Source: Bacteroidaceae bacterium (GTDB taxonomy: Bacteria; Bacteroidota; Bacteroidia; Bacteroidales; Bacteroidaceae). Taken from it: 61,116 nucleotides of DNA. The stretch is taken from assembly GCA_963634425.1 (NCBI GenBank), contig CAVHCL010000128.1, forward strand, positions 8,751 to 69,866, read 5' to 3'. Of the stretch, positions 25,096 to 61,116 are shown one piece after another; within the stretch, counting starts at the first letter, position 1, and each line of letters begins with the position of its first letter. The notes beneath the pieces were generated by a model. The model was not told the DNA's origin. It searched no databases and saw only the letters and a program-made list of their open reading frames with translations. The position numbers were made by a program, and so were the translations under genes.

Positions 25096-25869
25096 ATGCA
25101 AGACAGACAACTCAACAGACGGCTATATTTCCGCGAACTCGCATACACCAGCGAACATTACTTCATACCTTACATCAGCCGTTTTATGCGTGTCGGCGCG
25201 CCATTGCGTGTTCTTGAGATAGGATGTGGCGACGGCGGCAACCTGCTGCCGTTCGCACGTTTGGGATGCGAGGTCACGGGGTGCGACATGGCTGAGTGCA
25301 GAATATCGGACGCAAAGCGTTTCTTCCAGGAAGAATCCGCCGACGGCACTTTCATAGCCTCGGATGTCTTCCTGCTCAAGGGGCTTGAACGGCGTTTCAA
25401 CCTCATCATCTGCCACGACGTGATAGAGCACATCCTCGACAAGGGAGAATTCATGCGCAAGTGCAAGTCGCTGCTGCAGCCCGGCGGTGCCATGTTCATG
25501 TCGTTCCCGGCATGGCAGATGCCTTTCGGCGGACACCAGCAGATATGCAGAAGCCGACTGCTCTCACACCTCCCCTTCTTCCATCTGCTGCCCGCACCGC
25601 TCTATTCACGTATACTGAGAATGGGTGGCGAGAACGAGGGATGCATAAAGGAGTTGTTGGACATCAAACAGACACGGTGTCCCATAGAACTCTTCGAGAG
25701 AAGCATCCCCGACTGCTTCGAGGTGGCAGACCGCACCTCGTGGCTCATCAATCCGCACTATAAGGTGAAGTTCGGACTCACTCCGCTCCGTCTCCATGTT
25801 CCGTTTTGTGCCGTGCCGTACCTCCGCAACTTCATAACCACCTCGGTGTTCTATTTTTTGAGAGGATAG
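25096..25869 (+). CDS. Class I SAM-dependent methyltransferase
   Basis: Motif I VLEIGCGDGGN, followed by an acidic residue after beta-2 (VTGCDM), then ICHDVIEHI. Confidence 0.8.
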   Translation: MQDRQLNRRLYFRELAYTSEHYFIPYISRFMRVGAPLRVLEIGCGDGGNLLPFARLGCEVTGCDMAECRISDAKRFFQEESADGTFIASDVFLLKGLERRFNLIICHDVIEHILDKGEFMRKCKSLLQPGGAMFMSFPAWQMPFGGHQQICRSRLLSHLPFFHLLPAPLYSRILRMGGENEGCIKELLDIKQTRCPIELFERSIPDCFEVADRTSWLINPHYKVKFGLTPLRLHVPFCAVPYLRNFITTSVFYFLRG

Positions 25870-25873
25870 AAAC

Positions 25874-25926
25874 TCTAGAGAACCTAGAAGTTCTAGACTT
25901 TCTAGAACTTCTATAAAATCCATAAA
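25874..25926. repeat. Phased 9-bp palindrome array #1 (6 units)
   Basis: CTAGA/CTATA/CCATA cores start at 25876, 25885, 25894, 25903, 25912 and 25921, an exact 9-bp period. The 8-mers are CTCTAGAG, ACCTAGAA, TTCTAGAC, TTCTAGAA, TTCTATAA, ATCCATAA. The array begins 5 nt after the stop at 25869. Confidence 0.9.
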
Positions 25927-25927
25927 G

Positions 25928-25953
25928 GCTGGAGGCTCTGTAGCCTCCAGCCT
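25928..25953 (+). terminator. Perfect stem-loop after the methyltransferase gene
   Basis: GGCTGGAGGCT (25928-25938), loop CTGT, AGCCTCCAGCC (25943-25953): an 11-bp GC-rich perfect stem. There is no clear U-tract, which is common in Bacteroidota. Confidence 0.6.
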
Positions 25954-26093: not shown

Positions 26094-26124
26094 TTTGGAG
26101 GAAAGGGATTTTGTCATATCTTTG
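26094..26124 (+). promoter_or_regulatory. Bacteroides-type promoter P1 for the pilus-like locus
   Basis: TTTG at 26094-26097, a 19-nt spacer, then TATCTTTG (TAnnTTTG) at 26117-26124. The first ATG of the downstream gene lies at 26181. Confidence 0.55.
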
Positions 26125-30653: not shown

Positions 30654-30685
30654 TTTGTGAGAATTACTGGATAGTCGTATCTTTG
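30654..30685 (+). promoter_or_regulatory. Bacteroides-type internal promoter P2
   Basis: TTTG at 30654-30657, a 20-nt spacer, then TATCTTTG at 30678-30685. This is the same -7 octamer as P1. It lies 132 nt upstream of the ATG at 30817. Confidence 0.55.
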
Positions 30686-30720: not shown

Positions 30721-30808
30721 CCATAGAAGCTATAGAGAATCTATGAGATCTATAAGTCCTATAGGCTATAGAAAACCTAAAAGCATAGAGGCACTATAGA
30801 GCCTACAT
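30721..30808. repeat. Phased ~9-bp palindrome array #2 (about 10 degenerate units)
   Basis: CTATAG-type cores (CCATAG, CTATAG, CTATGA, CTATAA, CTATAG, CTATAG, CTAAAA, CATAGA, CTATAG, CTACAT) start near 30721, 30730, 30741, 30750, 30759, 30766, 30777, 30784, 30794 and 30803. Spacing is 7-11 nt with a mean near 9. The array ends 8 nt before the ATG at 30817. Confidence 0.85.
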
Positions 30809-30816
30809 AACATGTA

Positions 30817-32823
30817 ATGTATAAGAGAATAGGAGTATATATATTGGCGGTGGGCCTGACGGCCTGTGTGGACGACTACTACAACGGGGGCTACTCTGCT
30901 CCCAACGGAGGAGGCATCTCTTTCGTCAATGCAGTCGTGCCTTTCACCCGTACCGGGAAGACCGGCAAGAATGCCGCCGATATGCTTGGAAACAGGTTCT
31001 TCGTCTATGGCATAAAGAACGAGAGCTTAGGCGCAGACGCTCTTGCCGCCGAAAACCTTGTGTTCCAAAACTACAAGGTGACGTACTCCGACGGCACCGG
31101 AGGTTCCTCCGTGGACAACAGCAGCGGATGGGGATATATAGGCAACGCCCTTTCCTACGACGAGGCTGCCAACCTGCGGGACAACATCGGCACTGCCGCA
31201 CAGGCCGTGAAATACTGGGACTACAATGCCGCCGACTATACCTTCTATGCGTTTGCCATCGCCAACAACGACCTTGAGGACGGCAAGATGAAGGTGACGA
31301 AGAACACCGGCAGCACCTTTGACACCTATCGCAACGGCTACACCATAGAGATGGCTGCGGATGCCGAGCCTACAGACCTCTATCTTGCCGACCGCATACA
31401 CATAACGGCATCCTCCAACACCGACCAGACACAGAGCAACGCCTACGGCGGCAAGGTGAGCTTCAACTTCCGCAACGCCATGGCGAAGGTGCGCGTGGGG
31501 ATGTACGAGACCGTCCCCGGCTATTCGCTCACCATCGACGCATTCCGCACTGTCGACGAGACAATGCCTTCGTTCGGTGACATGACGACGGAGAACACCG
31601 GTCAGTTCGCCGCCAACCTGAGCCACAACACACCGTACAAGGAGGGTACTATGACAGTGACGTACACAGACCGACACGCCACGGAAGAGAACATACCAGT
31701 GGTCGTTTTCGGCGGGACGAAGGACAATGTGCTCACTCTCGGCGACAACCTCCGGCAAGGGACGGTGCTCGGCGACAACGCCGCCGACGTGGTATACGAC
31801 AAGAGCGACGACGGCTATACCGCCATATATCCCATGGAGTACAACGCCCACAGTCTGAAGGTGAAGATGGACTTCACCCTGAAGTCCAAAGTGGGCGAGA
31901 CCATAGAGGTGAGGAACGCCACGGCGGAGGTGCCGGCCGCCTACTTGAAGTGGAAACCGGGATGTGCCTACACCTACATCTTCAAAATCAGCGACCAGAC
32001 CAACGCCACCGTAGGCAGCCTCACTGGGCTCTACCCCATAACGTTCGACTGCGTGGCAGTCAGCGACGGCACAGGAGAGGAGGAGAAGATATCCAACACA
32101 GGCAATGATGTCAACATAGTCACCATGGGCTACAACCCCGACTTGCGGCTCGTCACCGTGGGGCATGATGACTACAATGCCGGCAACACCGTCTATGCGT
32201 CATTCGTGGACAACAACACCCTCGTGACCGCCACATCGTCAAACACGAGACTCTTCGTCGCCACCACCACCGACCCAGAGAACTACCCCGTCACGCAAGC
32301 CAACGTGTCGACGTACATCAACAGCTACACCGCCGACAACACCCTCGTGGACCAACCTGTGACGGTGTACGGGCAGACTATAGCCGACGACGACTTCGTG
32401 AACGAGGTGCCTATGGGCGACGGCACCGATGCCATGCGTTCCTTGCCGGCAGTGAGATGGACGGCGGAGAGACGCGTCTACGCCGTGGAGTACACCACCT
32501 CGGACTCCAAGAGATATTACAAGATAGTGAAGGTGGACGGCTACGACGGACAGACCTCCGGCACGCTGTCGCTCAATCCTGCTGTAATAGAAAACTCCGG
32601 CGGCACAATAACACCGTCACTCACTGTGGACGGCATCACGGCATCCAATGCCGATGTCACGTACGCCCTCGACGCCGATGTGCCGTCGGGAGTGACCGTC
32701 AACGACAACGAGTCGGAGAATGTAACCATCACGGTGCCCGGCCAGACAACGGCAGGCACCTACACCATCATCGCCACCTACAACCGCAGGACGTACAGGA
32801 CATCCTTCAAGGTAAACCAGTAG
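30817..32823 (+). CDS. Type V pilin (fimbrillin/Mfa1-like lipoprotein), paralog 2, with a C-terminal Ig-like extension
   Basis: Lipobox GLTAC. GGISFVNAVVPFTR/TG. FRNAMAKVRVGMYETVPGY. YLKWKPGCAYTYIFKISD...GLYPITFDCVAV. Confidence 0.75.
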   Translation: MYKRIGVYILAVGLTACVDDYYNGGYSAPNGGGISFVNAVVPFTRTGKTGKNAADMLGNRFFVYGIKNESLGADALAAENLVFQNYKVTYSDGTGGSSVDNSSGWGYIGNALSYDEAANLRDNIGTAAQAVKYWDYNAADYTFYAFAIANNDLEDGKMKVTKNTGSTFDTYRNGYTIEMAADAEPTDLYLADRIHITASSNTDQTQSNAYGGKVSFNFRNAMAKVRVGMYETVPGYSLTIDAFRTVDETMPSFGDMTTENTGQFAANLSHNTPYKEGTMTVTYTDRHATEENIPVVVFGGTKDNVLTLGDNLRQGTVLGDNAADVVYDKSDDGYTAIYPMEYNAHSLKVKMDFTLKSKVGETIEVRNATAEVPAAYLKWKPGCAYTYIFKISDQTNATVGSLTGLYPITFDCVAVSDGTGEEEKISNTGNDVNIVTMGYNPDLRLVTVGHDDYNAGNTVYASFVDNNTLVTATSSNTRLFVATTTDPENYPVTQANVSTYINSYTADNTLVDQPVTVYGQTIADDDFVNEVPMGDGTDAMRSLPAVRWTAERRVYAVEYTTSDSKRYYKIVKVDGYDGQTSGTLSLNPAVIENSGGTITPSLTVDGITASNADVTYALDADVPSGVTVNDNESENVTITVPGQTTAGTYTIIATYNRRTYRTSFKVNQ

Positions 32824-47000: not shown

Positions 47001-47475
47001 CGACGGCACAACGGCGGCAGACGGCGACGGTGGCTTCTACAGCGTAAGCTCGTGGGACACCTCCGACTGGCATCTCGCCACCGGCGACAAAGCTCGCATC
47101 TGGACAGGCGAGGGCATCTTCACACAGACCGCAGCCGTAGCGGACAAAGAGGAACTCACCTTCCATCGCCCGGTGTACAACCACACGACACGCGCCAAGG
47201 GAACGGGAGCTCCGTCCGTGCGGCACAACGTGCGCCGCTATGCCGCAGAGCCCGACATTGACGACGCACAGGGCGACATAGAGATACGGGTGTACGGCCA
47301 CGAAGTGTACATAAGCGGACTGCAAGGCGGCGAGGAGATAGACATCTACGACGCTTCCGGACGGAGACACGCCTCGGCAAAGGCGCAAAGCAAGCAGTAC
47401 AAGACTGTAGTAACCGCCGACGGAGTGTACATAGTAAAAGTAGACGGCAAGTTGAAGAAAGTGATAGTCAGATAG
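35086..47475 (+). CDS. Giant (4129 aa) secreted multi-module right-handed beta-helix protein with a T9SS C-terminal sorting domain
   Basis: Signal peptide MQRKIVGLLIFTILSLLCPPGGAAQ. Seven modules each open with a cap like (I/V)(Y/F)V..G.G.SW..P...LQ.AI and close with D.GAYE. Many GGG(V/I)Y and N-N-x-A beta-helix rungs. The last ~70 aa, ...EIDIYDASGRRHA...ADGVYIVKVDGKLKKVIVR, look like a type A T9SS CTD. Confidence 0.85.
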   Translation: MQRKIVGLLIFTILSLLCPPGGAAQEVRYVSKGGAYSNDGKSWEKAKSNIQDAINDLVDNGLTGEVWVAHGIYTPTESTESTGGSTLYMSFKIPAGISVYGGFKGDETSKEAREENATKSFGNVYKYSTILSGDLSSSAEFTWNTTRERWETSFYGNCYHVVFFATNGFDATGRAKPNGGGKQSALLEGCVIEHGNAYNSDLSGRPHNAYGGGVYMVEGSCLKNCLVRQCVSYRDGGGVYMDGGGYIEHTAVMDCQTVGIGISYGMGGGVCMDGPDTYSASYTPMVMRRSGVFGCVGRMGGGVAIVANDTDGDNKYKIACSAVVVANNTATNEAGGIYMNSGGVITQATVVNNKCNGAGIITNGIANGRSAGVYCRNNAIVSNSVLWGGVCSANNDIQYATSRSGSGTELSPNIMYTSLSQSDYTDWSGVIKDNVTKLSKYNSSADGTAYASEGYPLFSNPTPNAGYVSSAQRTQFIYDGTSSIADGVTLYDNMGVEVNADNIKLGTTYYTDVAMQTVAVEGRDYTYLGAAYDFQPLSRSSLNHRGVLTIDLDRYGRTPAYEIDKDVMGKSFTPRPTLGAYLTTHTTIEPQTVTASGKTTVNFYVAPNDDGGTEYTSIGSSWNQPIRFFSDAMAFIKEQSYPSATTVNVYVKEGTVNNTNTSAVGRIRTTDIGIPGNVNIYGGYSSDNTGTDLDKRSPTACLTIITGDAQDDYALNVSHLLTFDGTENTVLDGFAIRNANARGTEKIEGTPVTVGAAMTFNNATGVKIRNCSVAGHTASEGAAADMTDSEVYFENCIFHNNESRTLDADGNAVSNTGNIVVRTGSTASFSHCNFIRNVGNAIDSYGTVKVVNSVFYGNMSEPLEDTRGNEDKALTAVRLFNGGTFTGDHNLFDSKSAAFIANNSLDGTNEAILTYAFSSTSTTYPRFMNPTKNAGVSPSGNVTYYGKATSFMPHNNNPMVNRASTVDSDGAETDDHAEWGTDMTGTVTRDYGGLPDIGAIENHESAVADEGEKAYPDGQKAYGKVLYVRNYRNDDGTVDNSTTDRDGYSWSRAINGNATYSGVNGFQYALNMANTLWNADQTTQHEVHVGAGTYTANLTWKEGVNVKGGYPAEGNPGENERSISNTKAEHMTVINGNGNGRVLTQYANFSTAAVFEGFTIQDGYTTGTNYGAGVYLLSGGTLKNCLVQNNTYSASSRNTNYCQGGGGIYMNDGSIVKNCKIMKNYVYANNYQSFFGGAGVYAAGGTLINSLIVENTTDSRKNNLLGAGLYIYQTSSLYNCTIAYNVAVSAGPDGDYAATGGVWDAAAKHQGGGKYINQSRFYNCIIWGNYANGRTAENLIQVGMSGFSDQAGNTNDAFHTCYSSAWSKTYASDDASDVNKVMIVGTGTGSASNYLAFYNNSKANEPFVRDDYDNTDYSLKATATQCINKGSEYQELTNLDITVDINGEERIQDCTIDKGAYEYNQSLDINPEIITTTGSTNNKRVFYVTPDGRGTASADSPANAACASKLQKVLDAAGRYKYNYPSDTVIVKVANSASLAAAGENFQYYACRTTDEGDQSARVWSIMVPRGVEVWGGYTDTYTSDDDNGFYTKDSAGNTADNRDITGNPTYFDSYYYNKSEKQYTYTYHVVTFTDRVFDGEGYPYEEGDTIGEPSTWKEGDKYMSMSEKTADRAVIDGLFVTGGNADAQVPNSANATADINQYGGAAIVTDYAHVRNCIVRGNNGTYGGALALTHNALVSGCLIDQNTADYGGAVYMFEEGTTLSDGTVVDTKSSGTAVDENMAHVYTSTIVNNTANKQGGGIWFGQSSDDMNIRVNSSVIWQNNSVNQANVSGLYNATKAADDPLTTIEFYPFAFCAVQNLLVPGLNNIQLGNLNSSGVRFAAKGNADDDHNTIAKESTDDDTHGKYDDFGYYALTDYSSLIRNGMPSEQYSALVTSAGLSAFDFAAEDRLVSTGRNRTSIEMGARALDKILDSRQLMLRIFVARSEDINMDAAQTMMNLAATAAEGSDEEYYSQEGSSFAFPMQSLQDALDYIIEARSLNGVKTGLNQEGSNNLPFEICLGRGTYYPRHNIDNVHINSSGNSFAIPEGVSVYGGFAIDNPDREKSYFGRYYKEGDNPAGYTNVLSDNVKSVVETDNDTLVSIGGSDGYAIDQLPISKLKPRRRTLDNNGNNIIEPWEFENQTILSGDVSYQAANGSYHVVTLVADQNVTGMLPKAAEPTSDALDYSVYTTANGEGSYAYEQGQDIVLDGLQIVSGHALHYTEGSTDYTNMYNHYLGGGIFVNGNRYCDDYNKKTSLAAEGFGTIEYKHSGISESVGYRNIPLIIANCKFTNNTAGGGGALCSNGLVNIYSSVFEQNRSVSGCETLLDINGDEKEVAYAGIGGAVLATYQLRVYNTLFANNEAYDERLNEKPTEFKRMLADETRSLLGGAGGAVYVGRFGFFHILNCDFVRNRANAYPVMFTMNPNRDFTDGRNGGIGEGNPLRPTTTYYNQFVNTLFWGNDINDEMSKKYDSVNPLFKFNSRLFCNYAPGEFSGIYSAPDFTDDTKIPSDLTALDGNSTSRHSDFGETAWYCAYEYGRGTTPHNITDMRNLGFLPHVYARDMIHSEGEKKGADTYQNCNIRLSSENSDLEGPNFVNPSLTAGYDGYYESADWSPARLSNLVDNGAGKIAQEITLENEVYKTSFKEYTSENIPSRSIYYNNGNADGYTTETVGDYDTEGVYTTTRVLNTYDRNRTYLPVGEMTYMESSATGQALYRISYDPNPTHNQTYIDIGVYEYPHTELQYTTTGDEVDILWVSPFEKPDNGLPNGSAWSQPTSDLQRAIETLLASRNGHRKEIRLMDGPFTPIYNIEDKLAFTIDTKAINESVTMPVKAYEEDGKTVKEYDTGKGVVSLTIKGGYSRELNNVYNPLEYPAVIRQQARSHATSDRWNYLFYIHDGTQRYGYNTYNEANGYGNYADSDGEGYSKTVNTIPLHIDGVTLVNNQANKDVNGAAIFYGDLADDITASTPAHVSINTYYTDAEKSEESEEPTRYYNRTVDKYYTDATYQVVSETETPFVSYKYAETTANKIVISKSKIMNSGSYADDDHSTCAVYIGKNGGNALLYNNVMHSNTGNPLVSAVPTTIVNNTYALNKGRVDLNGENTRVSSLVINQDDNDGNYDPDGPMLAPHHQRRAPSAATGSAIFNSVFWRNNNDGVQFVLPGFVSAQKSGSIFSHNAVTGYSTDVSDYSLPDIPDQNYNVGLSDENSDIINGPNFADPKQEATLADDIELRNFTLLPSLRLLNKGNNTLYNDNVIKNPDTYNIYDLAWMTTTRTDAGGEQRFVYDIDLGAYEYQNNLNRIIYVNPNVSATGLGNSWADPVAYGNLQAAIDLAAVYHVNNVDEEAYVFVKGAGTSSAGLHLGESVIMRDGVSVYGSILPTRTEDCPYTTTSSNGIREYAQTEIDKYVATVTAERGGLADPTAGTTTVSGIKTPSSTTFNNTNAEIVSVVDGFAVTATNRKNPSGTVAQPVINVQPFNSDGRVALRNIIVHGNDLSAQRLTDLATVDNALIYEALFRDNKVDDTGCHLRIGRNGYGVNLTVEGRTVGADGNVTYNGTDSKDGDHIFNSLVNYTGHPATENTLSGYNYKVSAPNLNYQLTEMSTHIDQCEAVNPMKDVPTLKQFINYDTDRDLLGNLRLLRGVSTEDKVDRGAFETWRVDQDVVCTSKDADGNLTNYYPHVGSVVYIMQGNSLVMEQYETQAAEGVTTQTSGTALRPAYLLVQDGASLYGNGNAVSVSYVGVERETSKDGSMVSLPYAMQYGGTDIASNGTGAPAYSADGVLTLSADKAGTYSYNGVGRSAWNSTFYNTASPQWTELTDVTTDSNKGILYKSAADKLYRFTAQGDADNMDSYVYTETAGEISKTVELQQYDDRVSTDGAADFTEKEDMGWNCIGLPWLVSDYDTSAKETLSGDSHYNMDIPHTLWLWYDGKTYLDGTTAADGDGGFYSVSSWDTSDWHLATGDKARIWTGEGIFTQTAAVADKEELTFHRPVYNHTTRAKGTGAPSVRHNVRRYAAEPDIDDAQGDIEIRVYGHEVYISGLQGGEEIDIYDASGRRHASAKAQSKQYKTVVTADGVYIVKVDGKLKKVIVR

Positions 47476-47478
47476 GTT

Positions 47479-47522
47479 TTCTAGAAGTTCTAGAGACTCT
47501 AAAAAATCTAGAAGATCTATAA
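47479..47522. repeat. Phased 9-bp palindrome array #3 (5 units, plus a degenerate unit over the stop codon)
   Basis: The 8-mers TTCTAGAA, TTCTAGAG, CTCTAAAA, ATCTAGAA and ATCTATAA start at 47479, 47488, 47497, 47506 and 47515, an exact 9-bp period. The array fills the 60-nt gap between the giant gene and the next gene. Confidence 0.9.
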
Positions 47523-55916: not shown

Positions 55917-57116
55917 ATGAAAATATTGGTTCTCAACTGCGGAAGCAGCAGTATAAAATATGCTTTGTACAACATGGACGACCATAGCGTCGTCACGAGC
56001 GGAGGAATAGAGAAAATTGGTATGCCCGACAGTTTCATCACAGTGAAGCTCAATGGGGAGAAGTACCGTACGGAACGCCCCATAGAGGAGCATACGGCAG
56101 GTGTGCAGTGGATCTTTGAGGTGCTGACGCAGGGCGAACACGCCGTGCTCGGGAGTCTCGGCGAACTGGATGCCGTGGGACACCGCATGGTGCACGGAGG
56201 CGAGAAGTTCAACAAGAGCGTGCTGCTGACACCAGAGGTGATGGAAGCCTTCGCCGCCTGCAACGATCTGGCTCCTCTCCACAACCCCGCCAACATAAAA
56301 GGTGTAAACGCTGTGAAGGCTCTACTGCCCGACATCCCCCAGGTGGGAGTGTTTGACACGGCTTTCCACCAGACCATGCCGGACTACGCCTACATGTATG
56401 CGGTGCCCCACGACCTGTACACCAAGTACCACGTGCGGCGCTACGGCTTCCATGGCACCAGCCACAGATACGTAAGCCAACGTGTGTGCGAGTTTCTCGG
56501 CATAAGCCCCGAGGGCACGCGCATCATCACCTGCCATATAGGCAACGGTGCCAGCATAGCGGCAGTGAAGGACGGCAAGTGCGTGGACACGTCCATGGGG
56601 CTCACCCCTCTGGAGGGACTCATCATGGGAACACGCAGCGGCGACATAGACGCCGGTGCCGTGACGTTCCTCATGGACAAGTTGGGACTGGACACGAAAG
56701 GCATCTCCAACCTGCTCAACAAGAAAAGCGGTCTCGCCGGTATAAGCGAGCTCTCAAGTGACTTCCGCGACATACTGGCAGGTGTGGCAGCGGGCAACGA
56801 CGAGGCCCGTCTGGCCAAGGAGATGTACACATACCGCATAAAGAAGTACATTGGCGAATACGCCGCCGCCATGGGAGGAGTGGACATCATACTCTTCACA
56901 GGCGGAGCCGGCGAGAACCAGTGGGAAGTGCGCGAGGGAGCCACAAGCGGACTGGAGTTCATGGGAGTGAAGATGGACGACGAGAGAAACCGTGCGTGCC
57001 GCGCCACAGAGGCCATACTCTCCGCTGACGACTCCAAGGTTACCGTCTGCTGCATCCCCACGGATGAAGAGCTGATGATAGCCATGGACACAGAGGCCAT
57101 CGTCTCCGGCAAATAA
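55917..57116 (+). CDS. ackA: Acetate kinase
   Basis: MKILVLNCGSSSIKY, GHRMVHGG, RYGFHGTSH, HIGNGASI, LIMGTRSGDID, IPTDEE. Confidence 0.95.
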   Translation: MKILVLNCGSSSIKYALYNMDDHSVVTSGGIEKIGMPDSFITVKLNGEKYRTERPIEEHTAGVQWIFEVLTQGEHAVLGSLGELDAVGHRMVHGGEKFNKSVLLTPEVMEAFAACNDLAPLHNPANIKGVNAVKALLPDIPQVGVFDTAFHQTMPDYAYMYAVPHDLYTKYHVRRYGFHGTSHRYVSQRVCEFLGISPEGTRIITCHIGNGASIAAVKDGKCVDTSMGLTPLEGLIMGTRSGDIDAGAVTFLMDKLGLDTKGISNLLNKKSGLAGISELSSDFRDILAGVAAGNDEARLAKEMYTYRIKKYIGEYAAAMGGVDIILFTGGAGENQWEVREGATSGLEFMGVKMDDERNRACRATEAILSADDSKVTVCCIPTDEELMIAMDTEAIVSGK

Positions 57117-57196
57117 CTATAGAAGGCTTAGAAGCTCTAGTGGCTCTAGAATACCTAGAGTTTCTATAGCTTCTAAGCCTTCTATAGCCTCTACAA
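57115..57196. repeat. Phased 9-bp palindrome array #4 (9 units)
   Basis: CTATA/CTTAG/CTAGT/CTAGA/CTAGA/CTATA/CTAAG/CTATA/CTACA cores start at 57117, 57127, 57137, 57146, 57155, 57164, 57173, 57182 and 57191 (spacing 10, 10, then 9 six times). The first unit overlaps the ackA stop codon. Confidence 0.9.
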
Positions 57197-57356
57197 ACAA
57201 GCAAAAAGAAAAAATAATACCATTAAAACAAAAATATTTGTATGTTTTGTTGTTGTTACCAGTAAATATTGTACTTTTATGCTCGCAACAAGCAAGAATG
57301 TGATATAATTGCAGCGTATTTTTAAGTGACAATACATTTTTTACACAAACAACACA

Positions 57357-60300
57357 ATGAAAAAGAGAAACTTACTTTCACTTGGTATCCTTTCTTTGTT
57401 ATGGATGCCAGCCAGCAATGCCAGAGCATGGGACGAACCAACTCTGGTGGACGGTGTCTACCAGATAGGCACAGCAAGCGAACTGGAGTGGTTCAGTGAG
57501 GCCCTTGGGGGTGGCAATATTGATGCCATCAGCAGTGCCGAGCTAACCGCCGATCTGGACTTCACAGGAATAGACCACAAGCCTATAGGCAGTGACACGG
57601 ACAACAAGTTCTGCGGTGTATTCAACGGCAACGGGCACACCATCAAGAACTGGGTGGTAAAAGACGGCACGGCAGACCAGGCATTCTTCGGTTGGGTGCG
57701 CGGCGGTGCTACCATCAAGAACTTGACCATTGACTCCTCGTGCTCAGTGGAGACTTCCGGCAGGGCAGCCGCACTGATTGTCTTCATACAGACAAAAACA
57801 GGAGGAACGGTCTCTGTGGAAAACGTGGTGAACAAGGCGGATATCACATCCACGGCAAAGATTGCCTCCGGACTGTTGGCTGCCGGAGCGGACGGCAATG
57901 ACCATCCCAACATCAACATCATCAACTGTGTGAACACCGGCAAGATAACCAACGAAAGCGGCAATTACGGAGTAGGCTTCATAGGATGGAACAAGAGCCC
58001 TGACAAAAGTTATATCAAATGCTGCTACAACATAGGGGAAATCACGCCCTTAGACAAGGAAGCCAACCTATTCCGCGGCAATAACCGCGCCCTTGAAAAC
58101 ACATACGACCTTACAAACACCACAGCCCAAGGGAAAACCGGCAAGCAGGGTCTGAAAACCGACTGGAAGACAGATGATCCCCTGCACAGCGGAGAGCTGT
58201 GCTATGTGCTGAACAACGGCGACATGGCTGCGTCTGGCATAAAGTACAAGCAAGACCTCTCCGACCCGACATCCGTGCCCATGCCTGTGGAGGACGGTCC
58301 ACTGGTGTACGAGGTGGCGGCGTACAACTGCGACGGCACCCTCAACGGAGGGGTGAAATACGCCAATGAGGAAACTGCCAAGGTTATCCCACCTCACACC
58401 TTCAGTGATGAGACTGGTCTGTGCACGTTCTGCCAGTACCCCAACGAACAATGGATGACGGCGGAGGAAGACGGTTACTACCACTTGAGCAACACCGCAC
58501 AGGTGGAATGGTTCTCGCACATGGTGCGTGATGCCCTCCACGGTACCATGAACGTGAAGTTAGACGAAGACATTGACTTCGGCGGAGTGGAGAACGCCCA
58601 CATGCCCATCGGCACACACACCTTCAAGTACTTCGGACACTTCGACGGACAGGGACACAGGATAAAGGGCATGAAACTGACCACCGCCAACAGTCTCGCC
58701 GACCGTGCGCATGACGGTCAAGGCTTCTTCGGCTCTGTCCGCGGCGGCGGCACTGATGCAGACGGCACCGTGACCAACGAGGCGATAATAGAGAACCTCG
58801 TCATTGATGCGTCGTGCTCTGTGGAACACGACAACAACTTCGCGGCGGGCTTGGTGGCACACATCAACAGCCGCAACGACGCAGACAGCCGCATAATCAT
58901 CCGCAACTGCAGCAATGAAGCGAACGTGACGACAACAGGCAAGAATGCCGCAGGAATACTCGGGTGCGTGGAGAACACGAACGTAGGACTCGTGCTGCAC
59001 AACCTCTACAACAAAGGCAAGATAGTGGGCGGCAACGGAGAGAGCGCAGCCATCTGCGCCTGGACGGGTCAGCGCAACACGGACGGTGAAGTGGACGTGG
59101 AAGGATGCTGGAACATAGGAGAGGTGCAAGGCGTGGACAACAACGGGTACAACCTTGTACGACGCAACTCCAAGATAGTACCGCGCAACATGGTGGACTT
59201 GTGCACCACCAACAGCGGCAACCAGGGCAAGGTGACAACCCTGAATACCTCCTCACCTATAGAGAGCGGAGAACTCTGCTATCTGCTCAACGGAGACCAG
59301 AGCAAGATAGTGTACACACAGACGGTGGGAACTGACGAGATGCCTGTATACGGCACAACATCCGGACAGGTTTATATGAACGGTACACTACACTGCGACG
59401 GAACTGTGAAGGAAGTGTTCTACGAGAACTTGGAGAAGACATTGACGAGAGAAAGTCATGTGACAAAGGCAAACGGTTTCTGCGAAAACTGCACCATGAA
59501 CCCCGTGGAGGCACTTCAGAAGGACGGCGAGGGCTTCTACCTTATCAGCAACGCCGCAGAACTCGAGAAGTTCTCCGACATGGTGGCCAATGGCAAGCAG
59601 AGTGTGGACAACAAAGCAAAACTGACTGCGGACATTGACATGGAAGGCGTTACGCACACCCCCATAGGCGGCGGAGCCGACGACAGCAACAAGTTCAACT
59701 CCATATTCGACGGACAGGGACACACCATAAGCAACCTCACTTCGTGCAACCGCGAGGACAACACGGGACTGTTCAGCTGGGTACGCGGAAGTTCCGTAAT
59801 CAAGAACATCATTATCGATGAGACCTGCTCCTTCAGCGGCACAAACCACGTGGCGGCATTTGTGGGCAAGATACAAGCCGGCGATGTGGTGACGATAGAG
59901 AACTGCATAAACAGAGCCAGCGTGACGGCAAGCGGCAACCACGCCGCAGCGTTTGTGGGCAAATCCTTCACAACAGGTCTCTGCGCAGTACTCAATAACT
60001 GCGGCAATACCGGAACCATAACTTCAGGAATGAACGCCTGCGCATTGGTAAGCTGGAACACCGGCGGCGAGATAAACGGATGCTGGAACGTGGGAGAGAT
60101 AGTGAAGAGCGACTGGGACAAGGACAATGGAGCCGACTATGACAGCGACGTGAAGGTGGCGACCCTCAACCTCTTCAACGGTGACAAGGCAGACAACGTC
60201 ACCGTCAGCAACACCTGCGACGCAAGTGCTTCGGAACAAAGAGGCCAAGGTACTCTGCTTGAGACATCTGCGGCGGCAAGCGGAGAGATGGCTTACAGAT

Positions 60301-60890
60301 GCGGCGAGGCGTGGAAGCAGACGATAGGAACCGACGAATTACCCACATTGACAGGGGACGCCGTTGTCCGCTACGTGGGCGAAGCCGGCTATGCCACACT
60401 CAGCAGCACATCGCCTTTCACTCTTAACGGAGACGTGAAGGGAAGCATCGTCACTGGCGAGAATAACAGAGTGCTCATACTCTCTGAGGTGAAGAATGTA
60501 CCCGCAAGCACGGGAATCATAGTGGAGGGTACTTATTATAATATGCTTAATGGTACGACCGCTGACGACTGCTCTGGCAATCTCCTTGTGGCTGTCAGTG
60601 AAGACATGGATGCTCCGGTAGGCACATACGTTATGCAGAAGCAAAACGACAAAGTCGGTTTCTATTTGGTAGTCAGCGGAGAGCAACCTACCATCAAAGC
60701 CGGCAAGGCATACCTCAGCATACCGTCGGAGGCAAGGACGCTGTGGCTTGAGGGTGACACCGAGACAGGAATAAGCGGCATAGGCTCTGCCGACAGTCAA
60801 GCCGGAAAGATTTACAACATGGCAGGACAGCAAGTGGAGAAAGCCGGCAAGGGCATCTACATAGTGAACGGAAAGAAAGTGATATATTAA
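57357..60890 (+). CDS. T9SS-sorted surface protein with three ~345-aa GLUG/beta-helix-like repeats
   Basis: Signal peptide MKKRNLLSLGILSLLWMPASNARA. Three modules open at about 57451, 58471 and 59530: YQIGTASELEWFSEAL / YHLSNTAQVEWFSHMV / YLISNAAELEKFSDMV. Each continues ...L.ADIDF.G..H.PIG...F.G.F(N/D)G.GH.I. C-terminal GKIYNMAGQQVEKAGKGIYIVNGKKVIY is a T9SS CTD. Confidence 0.8.
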   Translation: MKKRNLLSLGILSLLWMPASNARAWDEPTLVDGVYQIGTASELEWFSEALGGGNIDAISSAELTADLDFTGIDHKPIGSDTDNKFCGVFNGNGHTIKNWVVKDGTADQAFFGWVRGGATIKNLTIDSSCSVETSGRAAALIVFIQTKTGGTVSVENVVNKADITSTAKIASGLLAAGADGNDHPNINIINCVNTGKITNESGNYGVGFIGWNKSPDKSYIKCCYNIGEITPLDKEANLFRGNNRALENTYDLTNTTAQGKTGKQGLKTDWKTDDPLHSGELCYVLNNGDMAASGIKYKQDLSDPTSVPMPVEDGPLVYEVAAYNCDGTLNGGVKYANEETAKVIPPHTFSDETGLCTFCQYPNEQWMTAEEDGYYHLSNTAQVEWFSHMVRDALHGTMNVKLDEDIDFGGVENAHMPIGTHTFKYFGHFDGQGHRIKGMKLTTANSLADRAHDGQGFFGSVRGGGTDADGTVTNEAIIENLVIDASCSVEHDNNFAAGLVAHINSRNDADSRIIIRNCSNEANVTTTGKNAAGILGCVENTNVGLVLHNLYNKGKIVGGNGESAAICAWTGQRNTDGEVDVEGCWNIGEVQGVDNNGYNLVRRNSKIVPRNMVDLCTTNSGNQGKVTTLNTSSPIESGELCYLLNGDQSKIVYTQTVGTDEMPVYGTTSGQVYMNGTLHCDGTVKEVFYENLEKTLTRESHVTKANGFCENCTMNPVEALQKDGEGFYLISNAAELEKFSDMVANGKQSVDNKAKLTADIDMEGVTHTPIGGGADDSNKFNSIFDGQGHTISNLTSCNREDNTGLFSWVRGSSVIKNIIIDETCSFSGTNHVAAFVGKIQAGDVVTIENCINRASVTASGNHAAAFVGKSFTTGLCAVLNNCGNTGTITSGMNACALVSWNTGGEINGCWNVGEIVKSDWDKDNGADYDSDVKVATLNLFNGDKADNVTVSNTCDASASEQRGQGTLLETSAAASGEMAYRCGEAWKQTIGTDELPTLTGDAVVRYVGEAGYATLSSTSPFTLNGDVKGSIVTGENNRVLILSEVKNVPASTGIIVEGTYYNMLNGTTADDCSGNLLVAVSEDMDAPVGTYVMQKQNDKVGFYLVVSGEQPTIKAGKAYLSIPSEARTLWLEGDTETGISGIGSADSQAGKIYNMAGQQVEKAGKGIYIVNGKKVIY

Positions 60891-60903
60891 AAAACTGCAA
60901 GAT

Positions 60904-61083
60904 ATGAAAAAGACATATATTTCGCCAAACACAACGGCAATAAATATTCAGACACAACAACTCGTGGCCTTGAGTGTCCAGGACGGAACGGCAAACAAAG
61001 ACCTCGATGCGCTCAGCAGGGAGATGGACGATATTTGGGATGCTTGGGATGTTTGGGAAGAGGAAGACAAGACAAGAAGATAA
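60904..61083 (+). CDS. Small hypothetical protein (59 aa) with an acidic, Trp-rich C-terminus
   Basis: Hand translation: MKKTYISPNTTAINIQTQQLVALSVQDGTANKDLDALSREMDDIWDAWDVWEEEDKTRR*. Starts 14 nt after the upstream stop. Too short for the supplied ORF track. No homology is known to me. Confidence 0.35.
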   Translation: MKKTYISPNTTAINIQTQQLVALSVQDGTANKDLDALSREMDDIWDAWDVWEEEDKTRR

Positions 61084-61116
61084 GATAACGATATCTGTCC
61101 AGTAATCAAGCGGGAG

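What the first reader, a model, noticed from the sequence alone, without database searches (positions are those of the whole stretch)
57115..57196. Array #4: nine units starting on the ackA stop codon, upstream of a third T9SS cargo gene
Cores lie at 57117, 57127, 57137, 57146, 57155, 57164, 57173, 57182 and 57191 (AACTATAG, GGCTTAGA, AGCTCTAG, GGCTCTAGA, ACCTAGAG, TTCTATAG, TTCTAAGC, TTCTATAG, CTCTACAA). The array is followed by a 160-nt AT-rich leader and then the 1177-aa GLUG-repeat T9SS protein.

This locus is 6.4 kb away from the pilus locus, with housekeeping genes in between. The association of the repeat family with surface-protein genes is therefore not simply one contiguous island.
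Basis: seen in the sequence. Interest (0 to 1): 0.65.

Follow-up and report, generated by a model that had tools for sequence, protein, structure and literature searches.

The report
Stop-anchored CTAG repeat hairpin after ackA
The nine-unit repeat after ackA is real, but it is one copy of a fast-evolving 9-base intergenic repeat found next to ordinary housekeeping genes in many gut and rumen Bacteroidaceae, here folded into a long hairpin, and it is not a signal specific to surface-protein genes.

Summary
The array at 57117-57193 exists exactly as described and is far from chance. CTAG is almost absent from the window (12 sites), and 10 of the 12 lie inside three such arrays.

They form a 33-nt-arm inverted repeat, which as RNA is a -48 kcal/mol hairpin beginning on the ackA stop codon.

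A syntenic sister genome (AckA 98% identical) has a different sequence at the same place. It again folds into a near-perfect hairpin: 4-5 pairs changed on both sides, none broken.

Arrays of the same unit (TCTAGA-NNN / TCTATAG-NN) are common in CTAG-poor gut and rumen Bacteroidaceae-like contigs:
- They lie after stop codons and between cistrons, and are depleted from divergent promoter gaps.
- They show no orientation bias.
- They vary in copy number between strains.
- They flank diverse housekeeping genes.

The downstream 1177-aa gene keeps its own conserved promoter-like block in genomes where no array is present.

The proposed link to surface-protein genes is therefore not supported. The most likely reading is a hypervariable intergenic minisatellite that here serves as the 3' stem-loop or insulator of the pta-ackA transcript. 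That function is inferred, not shown.

The parts
55917..57116 (+). ackA (acetate kinase). Its TAA stop codon at 57114-57116 abuts the first repeat unit.
   Evidence: Pfam Acetate_kinase, E = 1.4e-152. Sequence read.
57117..57149 (.). Left arm of the inverted repeat. It holds four units in the 'TAGAAG' orientation: CTATAGAAGG, CTTAGAAG, CTCTAGTGG, CTCTAG.
   Evidence: Inverted repeat I1, RNA fold, unit parsing.
57150..57154 (.). Five-nucleotide loop (AATAC) at the dyad centre.
57155..57187 (.). Right arm of the inverted repeat. It holds four units in the 'CTTCTA' orientation: CTAGAGTTT, CTATAGCTT, CTAAGCCTT, CTATAG. Positions 57169-57187 are the exact reverse complement of 57117-57135.
   Evidence: Spacer-shuffle test z = -4.1.
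57188..57196 (.). Last, degenerate unit (CCTCTACAA), lying outside the hairpin.
57231..57284 (+). Promoter-like or regulatory block of the 1177-aa gene (AAAATATTT..TTG..TTGTACTTTTATGC). Its marked motifs are invariant in all four homologous loci, including two that have no array.
   Evidence: Alignment A4.
57357..60890 (+). Gene for a 1177-aa secreted repeat protein with no profile match. A conserved small ORF of about 59 aa follows at 60904-61083.
25867..25916 (.). Sister array 1. It starts on the TAG stop of a methyltransferase gene and is followed by a G+C-rich hairpin at about 25926-25953.
30723..30803 (.). Sister array 2 (CTATAG type, degenerate). It lies after a G+C-rich hairpin and 14 nt before the ATG at 30817.
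   Evidence: No extra hairpin energy in the spacer-shuffle test.
47473..47522 (.). Sister array 3. It fills the 60-nt gap between the 4129-aa gene (TAG stop at 47473) and the 1045-aa gene (ATG 47536). An orthologous array is present in L453.

Best explanation
Array #4 is a copy of a hypervariable intergenic minisatellite. The unit is 9 nt, TCTAGA-NNN or TCTATAG-NN, and TCTA is the best-kept part.

**How such arrays behave.**
- They are common in CTAG-depleted gut and rumen Bacteroidaceae.
- They grow, shrink and turn over, apparently by replication slippage and by template switching at their palindromic cores.
- They persist only where they are tolerated: directly after stop codons, between cistrons and between convergent genes.

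**What is special at this locus.** Two half-arrays in opposite orientation form a 33-bp-arm palindrome. On the pta-ackA transcript this is a -48 kcal/mol stem-loop starting at the stop codon. It lies upstream of the separate, conserved promoter-like block of the next gene.

**Proposed function.** The element most likely acts as the 3'-end structure of the ackA message. That could mean a terminator-like pause or insulator, a barrier against 3' exonucleases, or a possible RNase III site. It does not look like a control site for the surface-protein gene.

**Shown versus inferred.**
- Shown: the periodic array, the palindrome, family membership, copy-number polymorphism in an array of the same family in the L148 species, the genomic contexts, and conservation of the hairpin through compensatory change.
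- Inferred: slippage and template switching as the generating mechanism, that the hairpin forms in vivo, and what it does to the transcript.
For: **The structure**
- 33-nt arms, 88% complementary.
- -48 kcal/mol, z = -9.5.
- Exceeds controls that keep the cores and shuffle the spacers, 0 of 500.

**Conservation of the structure but not the sequence.** The syntenic genome L453 has AckA 98.3% identical and 78-84% identity at 4-fold degenerate sites.
- At the same place it has a sequence only 53% identical, while the leader is 79% identical.
- That sequence again forms a near-perfect hairpin (20 perfect pairs; -52 kcal/mol, z = -7.8).
- The consensus stem has 19 pairs. Four were changed on both sides (five counting a small side helix), three on one side, and none is broken.

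**Position**
- Relatives carry unrelated strong hairpins, often with a T run, right after ackA.
- The downstream gene's promoter-like block at 57231-57284 is conserved with or without the array.

**Family**
About 75 are 0.46-0.60 G+C, CTAG-poor contigs with arrays of 4-18 units.
- Context counts are 41 tandem, 13 convergent and 3 divergent. Divergent depletion has p = 0.004 by gap length.
- 29 of 81 array/upstream-gene pairs start within 10 nt of the stop codon, and 16 of these genes end in TAG.

**Minisatellite behaviour**
- Two, three or four units occur at one locus in strains whose AckA is identical or nearly so.
- Cores decay in sister strains.
- Presence or absence varies at the pta-ackA gap.
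Against: - There is no U tract after the hairpin in the window (CCTCTACAAACAAGC). The terminator scan finds nothing.
- Many family members cannot be efficient terminators. They sit 13-25 nt before the next ATG with no room for a promoter, for example array 3 and L336, L405, L374.
- Several arrays sit beside a separate canonical terminator (L347, L351, L385, W1, W2).
- Most family members have no more hairpin energy than their palindromic cores give. The hairpin is therefore a property of this locus, not of the family.
- Palindromes can be kept perfect by mutational template switching alone. The compensatory changes do not prove selection.
- No transcript data are available.
Confidence: 0.55

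Rival explanations
1. The array is a neutral or selfish minisatellite with no function. Slippage-prone 9-nt arrays accumulate wherever selection allows. The palindrome at this locus is made and kept perfect by intrastrand template switching (quasi-palindrome correction), not by selection.
For: - Arrays evolve faster than 4-fold degenerate sites: 53-66% identity against 78-84%.
- Copy number and presence vary between near-identical strains, and cores decay to CCAGG, CTGG and TATAGA.
- There is no orientation bias relative to transcription: 19 against 12, p = 0.28.
- Flanking genes are unrelated housekeeping genes.
- Depletion from divergent gaps is also expected if arrays simply damage promoters.
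Against: - Arrays persist at both orthologous positions (W3 and W4) in two genomes that differ at about 20% of neutral sites.
- The hairpin has no broken pair despite 8 changed pairs.
- The same core recurs at many unrelated loci and in many genomes, although CTAG is otherwise strongly avoided. This needs a biased generating process or selection.
Confidence: 0.25
2. The array is a DNA-level binding site for a lineage-specific protein. Candidates are a nucleoid-associated or roadblock protein, or a ribbon-helix-helix or TrpR-like dimer that binds cooperatively to phased CTAG/CTATAG cores.
For: - The cores are short and palindromic at a fixed 9-bp phase, with free spacers.
- Arrays show no orientation bias.
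- CTAG is so rare elsewhere that the arrays are unique addresses.
- The resemblance to omega, MetJ, Arc and TrpR tandem operators rests on my own knowledge and was not tested.
Against: - CTAG and CTATAG cores place the half-sites 2 bp differently, yet both occur in the same arrays.
- Cores decay freely in sister strains.
- Arrays are depleted from divergent promoter gaps, where operators normally sit.
- No candidate binding protein was identified. Distribution is patchy even among close relatives.
Confidence: 0.13
3. The arrays are upstream regulatory sites, or copy-number 'rheostats' for phase variation, dedicated to pilus and T9SS surface-protein genes.
For: - All four arrays in the window lie upstream of large secreted-protein genes.
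- Unit number is polymorphic in an array of the same family in the L148 species, as in known repeat-controlled adhesin promoters (my own knowledge).
Against: - Family-wide, the flanking genes are housekeeping genes.
- Array 4 lies upstream of, and outside, the promoter-like block that is conserved in homologues lacking any array.
- Array 1 is separated from the next gene by a hairpin terminator and about 460 nt.
- The polymorphic array sits between convergent genes.
Confidence: 0.05

Closest known systems
REP / BIME elements of enterobacteria and pseudomonads
   Same: - Extragenic imperfect palindromes placed after stop codons and between cistrons.
- Many copies per genome.
- Lineage-specific sequence.
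- Thought to act as mRNA 3' hairpins.
   Different: - The element here is built from 9-nt tandem units with a CTAG/CTATAG core.
- There is no conserved full-length consensus and no 5' GTAG motif.
- Unit number varies between strains.
- No RAYT transposase was looked for or seen.
Cyanobacterial STRR (short tandemly repeated repetitive heptamers)
   Same: - Short-period tandem arrays scattered through intergenic DNA.
- Function unknown.
- Sequence specific to the lineage.
   Different: - The unit is 9-10 nt with a self-complementary core.
- Here two mirror half-arrays form a hairpin.
- The Bacteroidaceae also carry very many true heptamer arrays, which are the closer STRR analogue.
Rho-independent terminator
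   Same: A strong stem-loop immediately downstream of the last gene of an operon. Relatives have canonical terminators at the same place.
   Different: - The stem is 39% G+C and very long.
- No U tract follows it in the window. The L453 ortholog has only CTTTT.
- Family members inside operons must be read through.
VNTR / contingency-locus repeats (for example the 7-bp repeats upstream of H. influenzae hmw genes)
   Same: Short tandem units whose number differs between strains. In the window they lie upstream of surface-protein genes.
   Different: - The array lies outside the conserved promoter-like block.
- Across the family it sits next to housekeeping genes, at their 3' ends.
- It is not in a promoter spacer or a reading frame.

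Membership tests
Rho-independent terminator | Stable stem-loop just downstream of a stop codon | tested here: met
   -48 kcal/mol hairpin at 57117-57187, starting at the stop codon.
Rho-independent terminator | U/T tract directly after the stem | tested here: not met
   The stem is followed by CCTCTACAAACAAGC. The terminator scan found 0 sites.
REP / BIME | Extragenic imperfect palindrome present in many copies | tested here: inconclusive
   The element is palindromic and extragenic. There are 4 related arrays in 61 kb. However, the copies share only the 6-7-nt core and no full-length consensus.
REP / BIME | Conserved 5' GTAG tetranucleotide and a cognate RAYT transposase | not tested
   No GTAG motif is evident in the units. 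No search for a Y1 transposase was made in the window or the related loci.
STRR-like intergenic short tandem repeats | Short-period tandem units, intergenic, at many loci | tested here: met
   - Period 9-10, nine units.
- Family members at many loci.
- 252 short-period arrays in 1.49 Mb against 15 in block-shuffled sequence.
Contingency-locus VNTR controlling a surface gene | Unit number polymorphic between strains | tested here: met
   2, 3 or 4 TCTATAG units at one locus in the L148 species. This could not be tested for array 4 itself, because no second strain was found.
Contingency-locus VNTR controlling a surface gene | Repeat lies inside the promoter, 5'UTR or coding frame of the regulated gene | tested here: not met
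   The array lies about 35 nt upstream of the conserved block 57231-57284. That block is kept in homologues without arrays.
Tandem operator or iteron array (omega, MetJ, Arc, TrpR type) | Phased short units in either orientation | tested here: met
   9-bp phase, and units occur in both orientations.
Tandem operator or iteron array (omega, MetJ, Arc, TrpR type) | Located in promoter regions, with a cognate binding protein | tested here: not met
   Arrays are depleted from divergent gaps: 3 of 57 against 18% expected. The binding protein cannot be tested with these tools.
Rfam RNA families | Match to a curated covariance model | tested here: not met
   No match at gathering score anywhere in the window.

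The most novel reading that the evidence does not exclude
The CTAG/CTATAG arrays may be the 9-nt, self-complementary subclass of a Bacteroidaceae-wide and apparently undescribed 'punctuation' of intergenic DNA by short tandem repeats.

**Observations behind this reading**
- Arrays of 7-9-nt units start on stop codons.
- They fill the gaps between cistrons. For example, the pta-ackA spacer carries an array of roughly four or more copies in many of the species examined, with a different unit each time.
- They often occur as inverted pairs that make long stems.
- Inverted pairs also flank small genes for bAvd-like four-helix-bundle proteins (the '23S rRNA IVS protein' family).

**The novel claim.** If these arrays are functional, they could do one or more of three things:
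- clear ribosomes in all reading frames and provide unstructured landing pads for translation initiation without a Shine-Dalgarno sequence;
- provide double-stranded RNA processing sites;
- serve as the ends of a mobile cassette.

That would be a new principle of operon architecture in a major gut phylum.
Probability: 0.2. Interest if true: 0.8.

Novelty: new variant of a known kind. Interest (0 to 1): 0.5.

Why it matters
For this window, the result removes a tempting but wrong inference that a repeat code marks T9SS and pilus genes. It replaces that with a testable one: a conserved stem-loop that separates the pta-ackA operon from the neighbouring surface-protein gene.

More broadly, it shows that gut and rumen Bacteroidaceae carry abundant, fast-evolving short tandem arrays anchored on stop codons. 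I found no description of these in six full-text literature searches.

Such arrays matter in four practical ways:
- Gene calling: they supply stop codons and create false N-terminal extensions.
- Strain typing: they behave as VNTRs.
- Assembly of metagenome-assembled genomes.
- Understanding mRNA 3' ends and intercistronic regions in organisms that translate without Shine-Dalgarno sequences.

Tried and rejected
- **Rfam** and the consensus promoter/terminator scan found nothing.
- **Pattern scans of viral contigs** were swamped by perfect AT-rich tandem repeats, many from giant-virus contigs. These look unrelated and were discarded.
- **About a third of the metagenome hits were unrelated** and were excluded. 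They comprise AT-rich contigs (0.16-0.28 G+C) carrying a conserved palindromic element, and apparently coding repeats such as L367.
- **A second strain of the window's own species**: its AckA is unique in the protein collection, and the only contig found is identical to the window.
- **In-frame tandem stop codons**: array 4 puts 6 further in-frame TAG/TAA triplets after the ackA stop. However, the L453 ortholog starts about 20 nt later, and other arrays are not in phase. I treat the in-frame stops as a by-product of a 9-nt period anchored on a stop codon.
- **A Rho-loading (rut-like, YC-spaced) signal**: rejected because the arrays lie in either orientation relative to transcription.
- **A MITE with target-site duplication**: no conserved ends or duplications were seen around the arrays.
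- **Hairpin formation as a family-wide property**: rejected by the spacer-shuffle test.
- **Profile confirmation of a T9SS C-terminal domain or GLUG repeats in the 1177-aa protein**: none found.
- **Literature**: six full-text searches found no description of this repeat family.

Full report
**1. The observation**

The sequence after the ackA stop codon (TAA, 57114-57116) reads CTATAGAAGG CTTAGAAG CTCTAGTGG CTCTAGAATA CCTAGAGTT TCTATAGCT TCTAAGCCT TCTATAGCC TCTACAA.

The array is far from chance.
- CTA-N6 repeated four times matches 12 times in the window and never in 100 shuffles. Every match lies in the arrays at 25867-25913, 47481-47519 or 57120-57193.
- CTAG occurs 12 times in 61 kb, and 10 of these are in the arrays. 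All 7 TCTAGA sites are in arrays.

A fourth, more degenerate CTATAG-type array lies at 30723-30803.

The flanking annotation is mostly right.
- pta and ackA are confirmed.
- folP, cdaA, a methyltransferase and DUF4491 lie between the arrays.
- The 160-nt leader is 26% G+C.
- The 1177-aa protein matches no Pfam or NCBIfam model, including T9SS sorting-domain and GLUG models. That label therefore rests on inspection only.

**2.

The array is two mirror-image half-arrays. Positions 57117-57149 and 57155-57187 are 33-nt inverted arms, 88% complementary, around a 5-nt loop. Positions 57169-57187 are the exact reverse complement of 57117-57135.

As RNA this folds at -48 kcal/mol. Shuffled sequences average -20 +/- 2.9, giving z = -9.5.

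Each core is itself a palindrome, so I shuffled only the spacer bases. The result was -30.1 +/- 4.4, with 0 of 500 shuffles reaching the observed value. The same test is marginal for arrays 1, 3 and L148B. It shows no extra hairpin energy for array 2 or for the other three arrays in related genomes. The strong hairpin is thus a property of this locus and not of the family.

**3. Source and relatives**

The window comes from an uncultured Bacteroidaceae lineage of herbivore or pig gut type. CTAG is depleted throughout this clade, at mostly under 1 per kb.

In 80 ackA loci from relatives (1.43 Mb), chains of five or more CTA/TAG cores at 9-10-nt spacing occur in only two genomes, L148 and L196.

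Relatives with 91% AckA identity have no arrays. In them ackA is followed 3 nt later by yaaA. Most other relatives carry an unrelated strong hairpin right after ackA, often with a T run.

**4. A syntenic sister genome**

L453 was found through a 90%-identical homologue of the 1177-aa protein. It has the same gene order as the window, from the giant surface-protein gene through pta-ackA to that homologue. AckA is 98.3% identical, and 4-fold degenerate sites are 78-84% identical. L453 has arrays at the positions of both array 3 and array 4.

The array-4 ortholog behaves as follows.
- It is only 53% identical to the window's array, with large indels. The leader is 79% identical.
- It starts about 20 nt after the stop codon.
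- It is again a near-perfect hairpin, with 20 perfect pairs, -52 kcal/mol and z = -7.8.
- In the consensus fold the main stem has 19 pairs. Four changed on both sides (five counting a small side helix), three on one side and none is broken.

By my rough estimate, at about 20% neutral divergence one would expect roughly eight broken pairs and well under one compensatory pair. The hairpin is therefore maintained. The cause may be selection or the self-correcting template switching that palindromes undergo. These data cannot separate the two.

**5. The array is not part of the downstream gene's control region**

Two further homologues (82-83% identical, L454 and L455) lie next to a divergent MatE gene and have no CTAG array. 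All four loci share invariant motifs, AAAATATTT..TTG..TTGTACTTTTATGC, at window 57231-57284. This block is most simply the gene's own promoter or regulatory region. The array lies upstream of it, on the ackA side.

**6. The family is generic**

In L148 (a roe-deer rumen Bacteroidaceae genome) the arrays lie in three places:
- between pta and ackA;
- in a 65-nt gap between an outer-membrane beta-barrel gene and a convergent pseudouridine synthase gene;
- between TetR and an SDR gene.

About 75 are CTAG-poor contigs of 0.46-0.60 G+C with arrays of 4-18 units and variable 2-nt spacers.

I called genes on these contigs with a simple codon-usage gene caller of my own. It is imperfect and missed a few window genes. 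The results were as follows.
- **Context.** 41 arrays lie in tandem gaps, 13 in convergent gaps and 3 in divergent gaps. Divergent gaps make up 18% of gap length, so the depletion has p = 0.004.
- **Stop codons.** 29 of 81 array/upstream-gene pairs begin within 10 nt of the stop codon. In 16 of these the upstream gene ends in TAG, and in most of them that TAG is the first TAG of the array. In L341 both convergent genes end at or within the outermost units of one 94-nt array.
- **Downstream spacing.** The next ATG usually follows 13-60 nt later, after an A-rich leader.
- **Orientation.** There is no bias relative to transcription: 19 against 12.
- **Flanking genes.** They are diverse housekeeping genes.

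Some arrays leave no room for a promoter before the next gene, so they must be transcribed through. Several arrays sit beside a separate canonical terminator. The family is therefore not simply 'the terminator'.

**7. Minisatellite behaviour**

The evidence comes from strains of the L148 species whose AckA is identical or nearly so.
- The convergent-gap array has 4, 3 or 2 units.
- The TetR-SDR array keeps 8 units, but its cores have decayed in sister strains to CCTAGA, TCCAGG, TCTGGA and TATAGA.
- The pta-ackA array is present only in L148. Other strains have different short repeats there, or a 430-nt insertion.

Together with the faster-than-neutral divergence between the window and L453, this points to slippage and rapid turnover.

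**8. Wider context**

An unbiased Tandem Repeats Finder pass over the window plus the 80 ackA loci (1.49 Mb) found 252 arrays of period 6-12 with three or more copies. Sequence shuffled in 60-nt blocks gave 15. Period 7 dominates (164 arrays).
- In tandem gaps these arrays lie a median of 10 nt from the upstream stop codon and 15 nt from the next start codon.
- The pta-ackA spacer carries an array of roughly four or more copies in many of the species examined, including B. thetaiotaomicron, with a different unit each time.
- Twenty-one pairs of arrays within 700 nt are inverted and none is direct. Close pairs make long hairpins. Four of the five pairs about 400-560 nt apart, plus the L318 insertion, enclose small PF05635 / bAvd-like genes.

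The CTAG arrays are the 9-nt, self-complementary members of this larger class. In the library searched I found no paper describing either.

**9. Verdict**

The proposed link to surface-protein genes is not supported.

The best-supported account is a hypervariable intergenic minisatellite whose two mirror halves form a conserved stem-loop at the 3' end of the pta-ackA message. Its function as a terminator-like barrier, stabiliser or insulator is inferred and needs transcript mapping.

Two rivals remain open:
- a functionless repeat kept palindromic by mutation;
- a DNA-binding array.

Noticed in passing
L121-L200 (ackA loci of Bacteroidaceae), e.g. L169 9963-9993, L180 9965-9999, L187 9969-9999: Heptamer and octamer tandem arrays of about four or more copies are very common in intergenic gaps: 252 arrays in 1.49 Mb against 15 in block-shuffled sequence. 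Many start on the upstream stop codon and end near the next ATG. The pta-ackA spacer carries such an array in many species, with a different unit in each.
   Followed up: partly
L122 9481-9993; L132 3018-3531; L185 12069-12538; L182 4014-4637; L318 9513-10000: Small genes of 121-138 aa from the PF05635 '23S rRNA intervening sequence protein' / bAvd-like four-helix-bundle family sit between inverted heptamer arrays. One is a presence/absence insertion in the pta-ackA gap (present in L318, absent in L319-L327), bounded by an 11-nt direct repeat TTTAAAGTTTA. They look like mobile cassettes.
   Followed up: partly
window 60904-61083; L453 13548-13718; L454 5561-5731; L455 6296-6466: A conserved small ORF of 56-59 aa follows the 1177-aa gene within about 15 nt in all four loci. 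It reads MKKTYI.P.TTA.EIQTQQLVAMS..G... and ends in an acidic, Trp-rich tail (DIWD.W.EED). It has no family match.
   Followed up: partly
window, whole: Several 4-bp palindromes are strongly avoided: CTAG 12, GATC 31, TTAA 44 and AATT 52 sites in 61 kb, where other palindromic tetramers occur 98-283 times. CTAG avoidance is shared by the whole clade.
   Followed up: partly
window 30678-30685 and 26117-26124: The same TATCTTTG motif, which fits the Bacteroidetes -7 promoter consensus TAnnTTTG, lies upstream of the 668-aa gene and of the DUF3575 gene. This would place array 2 inside a 5' UTR.
   Followed up: no
L341 1192-1285: One 94-nt TCTATAG array is the entire gap between two convergent genes. 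Both genes end at or within its outermost units.
   Followed up: no
L454 1690-1850: Upstream of the array-less homologue of the 1177-aa gene lies a different tandem repeat of about 42 nt. It has internal hairpins (GCTCCACGCGGAGCCGC...GATTCTAGCCCC, two to three copies).
   Followed up: no
L334, L339, L340, L371, L377, L390, L391, L419, L435, L444: Very AT-rich contigs (0.16-0.28 G+C) share a conserved palindromic element, GCATCTATAGAC TCTATAGAG TCTATAGATGC, with conserved flanks. It is an apparently dispersed repeat in an unidentified AT-rich organism and is unrelated to the Bacteroidaceae arrays.
   Followed up: no
L311-L317 versus window 57117-61116: In relatives with 91% AckA identity, ackA is followed 3 nt later by yaaA and then ribH. 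In the window and in L453, the hairpin, the 1177-aa gene and the small ORF occupy that position. This is a lineage-specific rearrangement or insertion.
   Followed up: partly
window 47143-47472: The C-terminus of the 4129-aa protein gives only sub-threshold hits to DUF6383 (E = 7e-4) and Por_Secre_tail (E = 2e-3). The T9SS-cargo labels for this locus are therefore weakly supported at best.
   Followed up: partly
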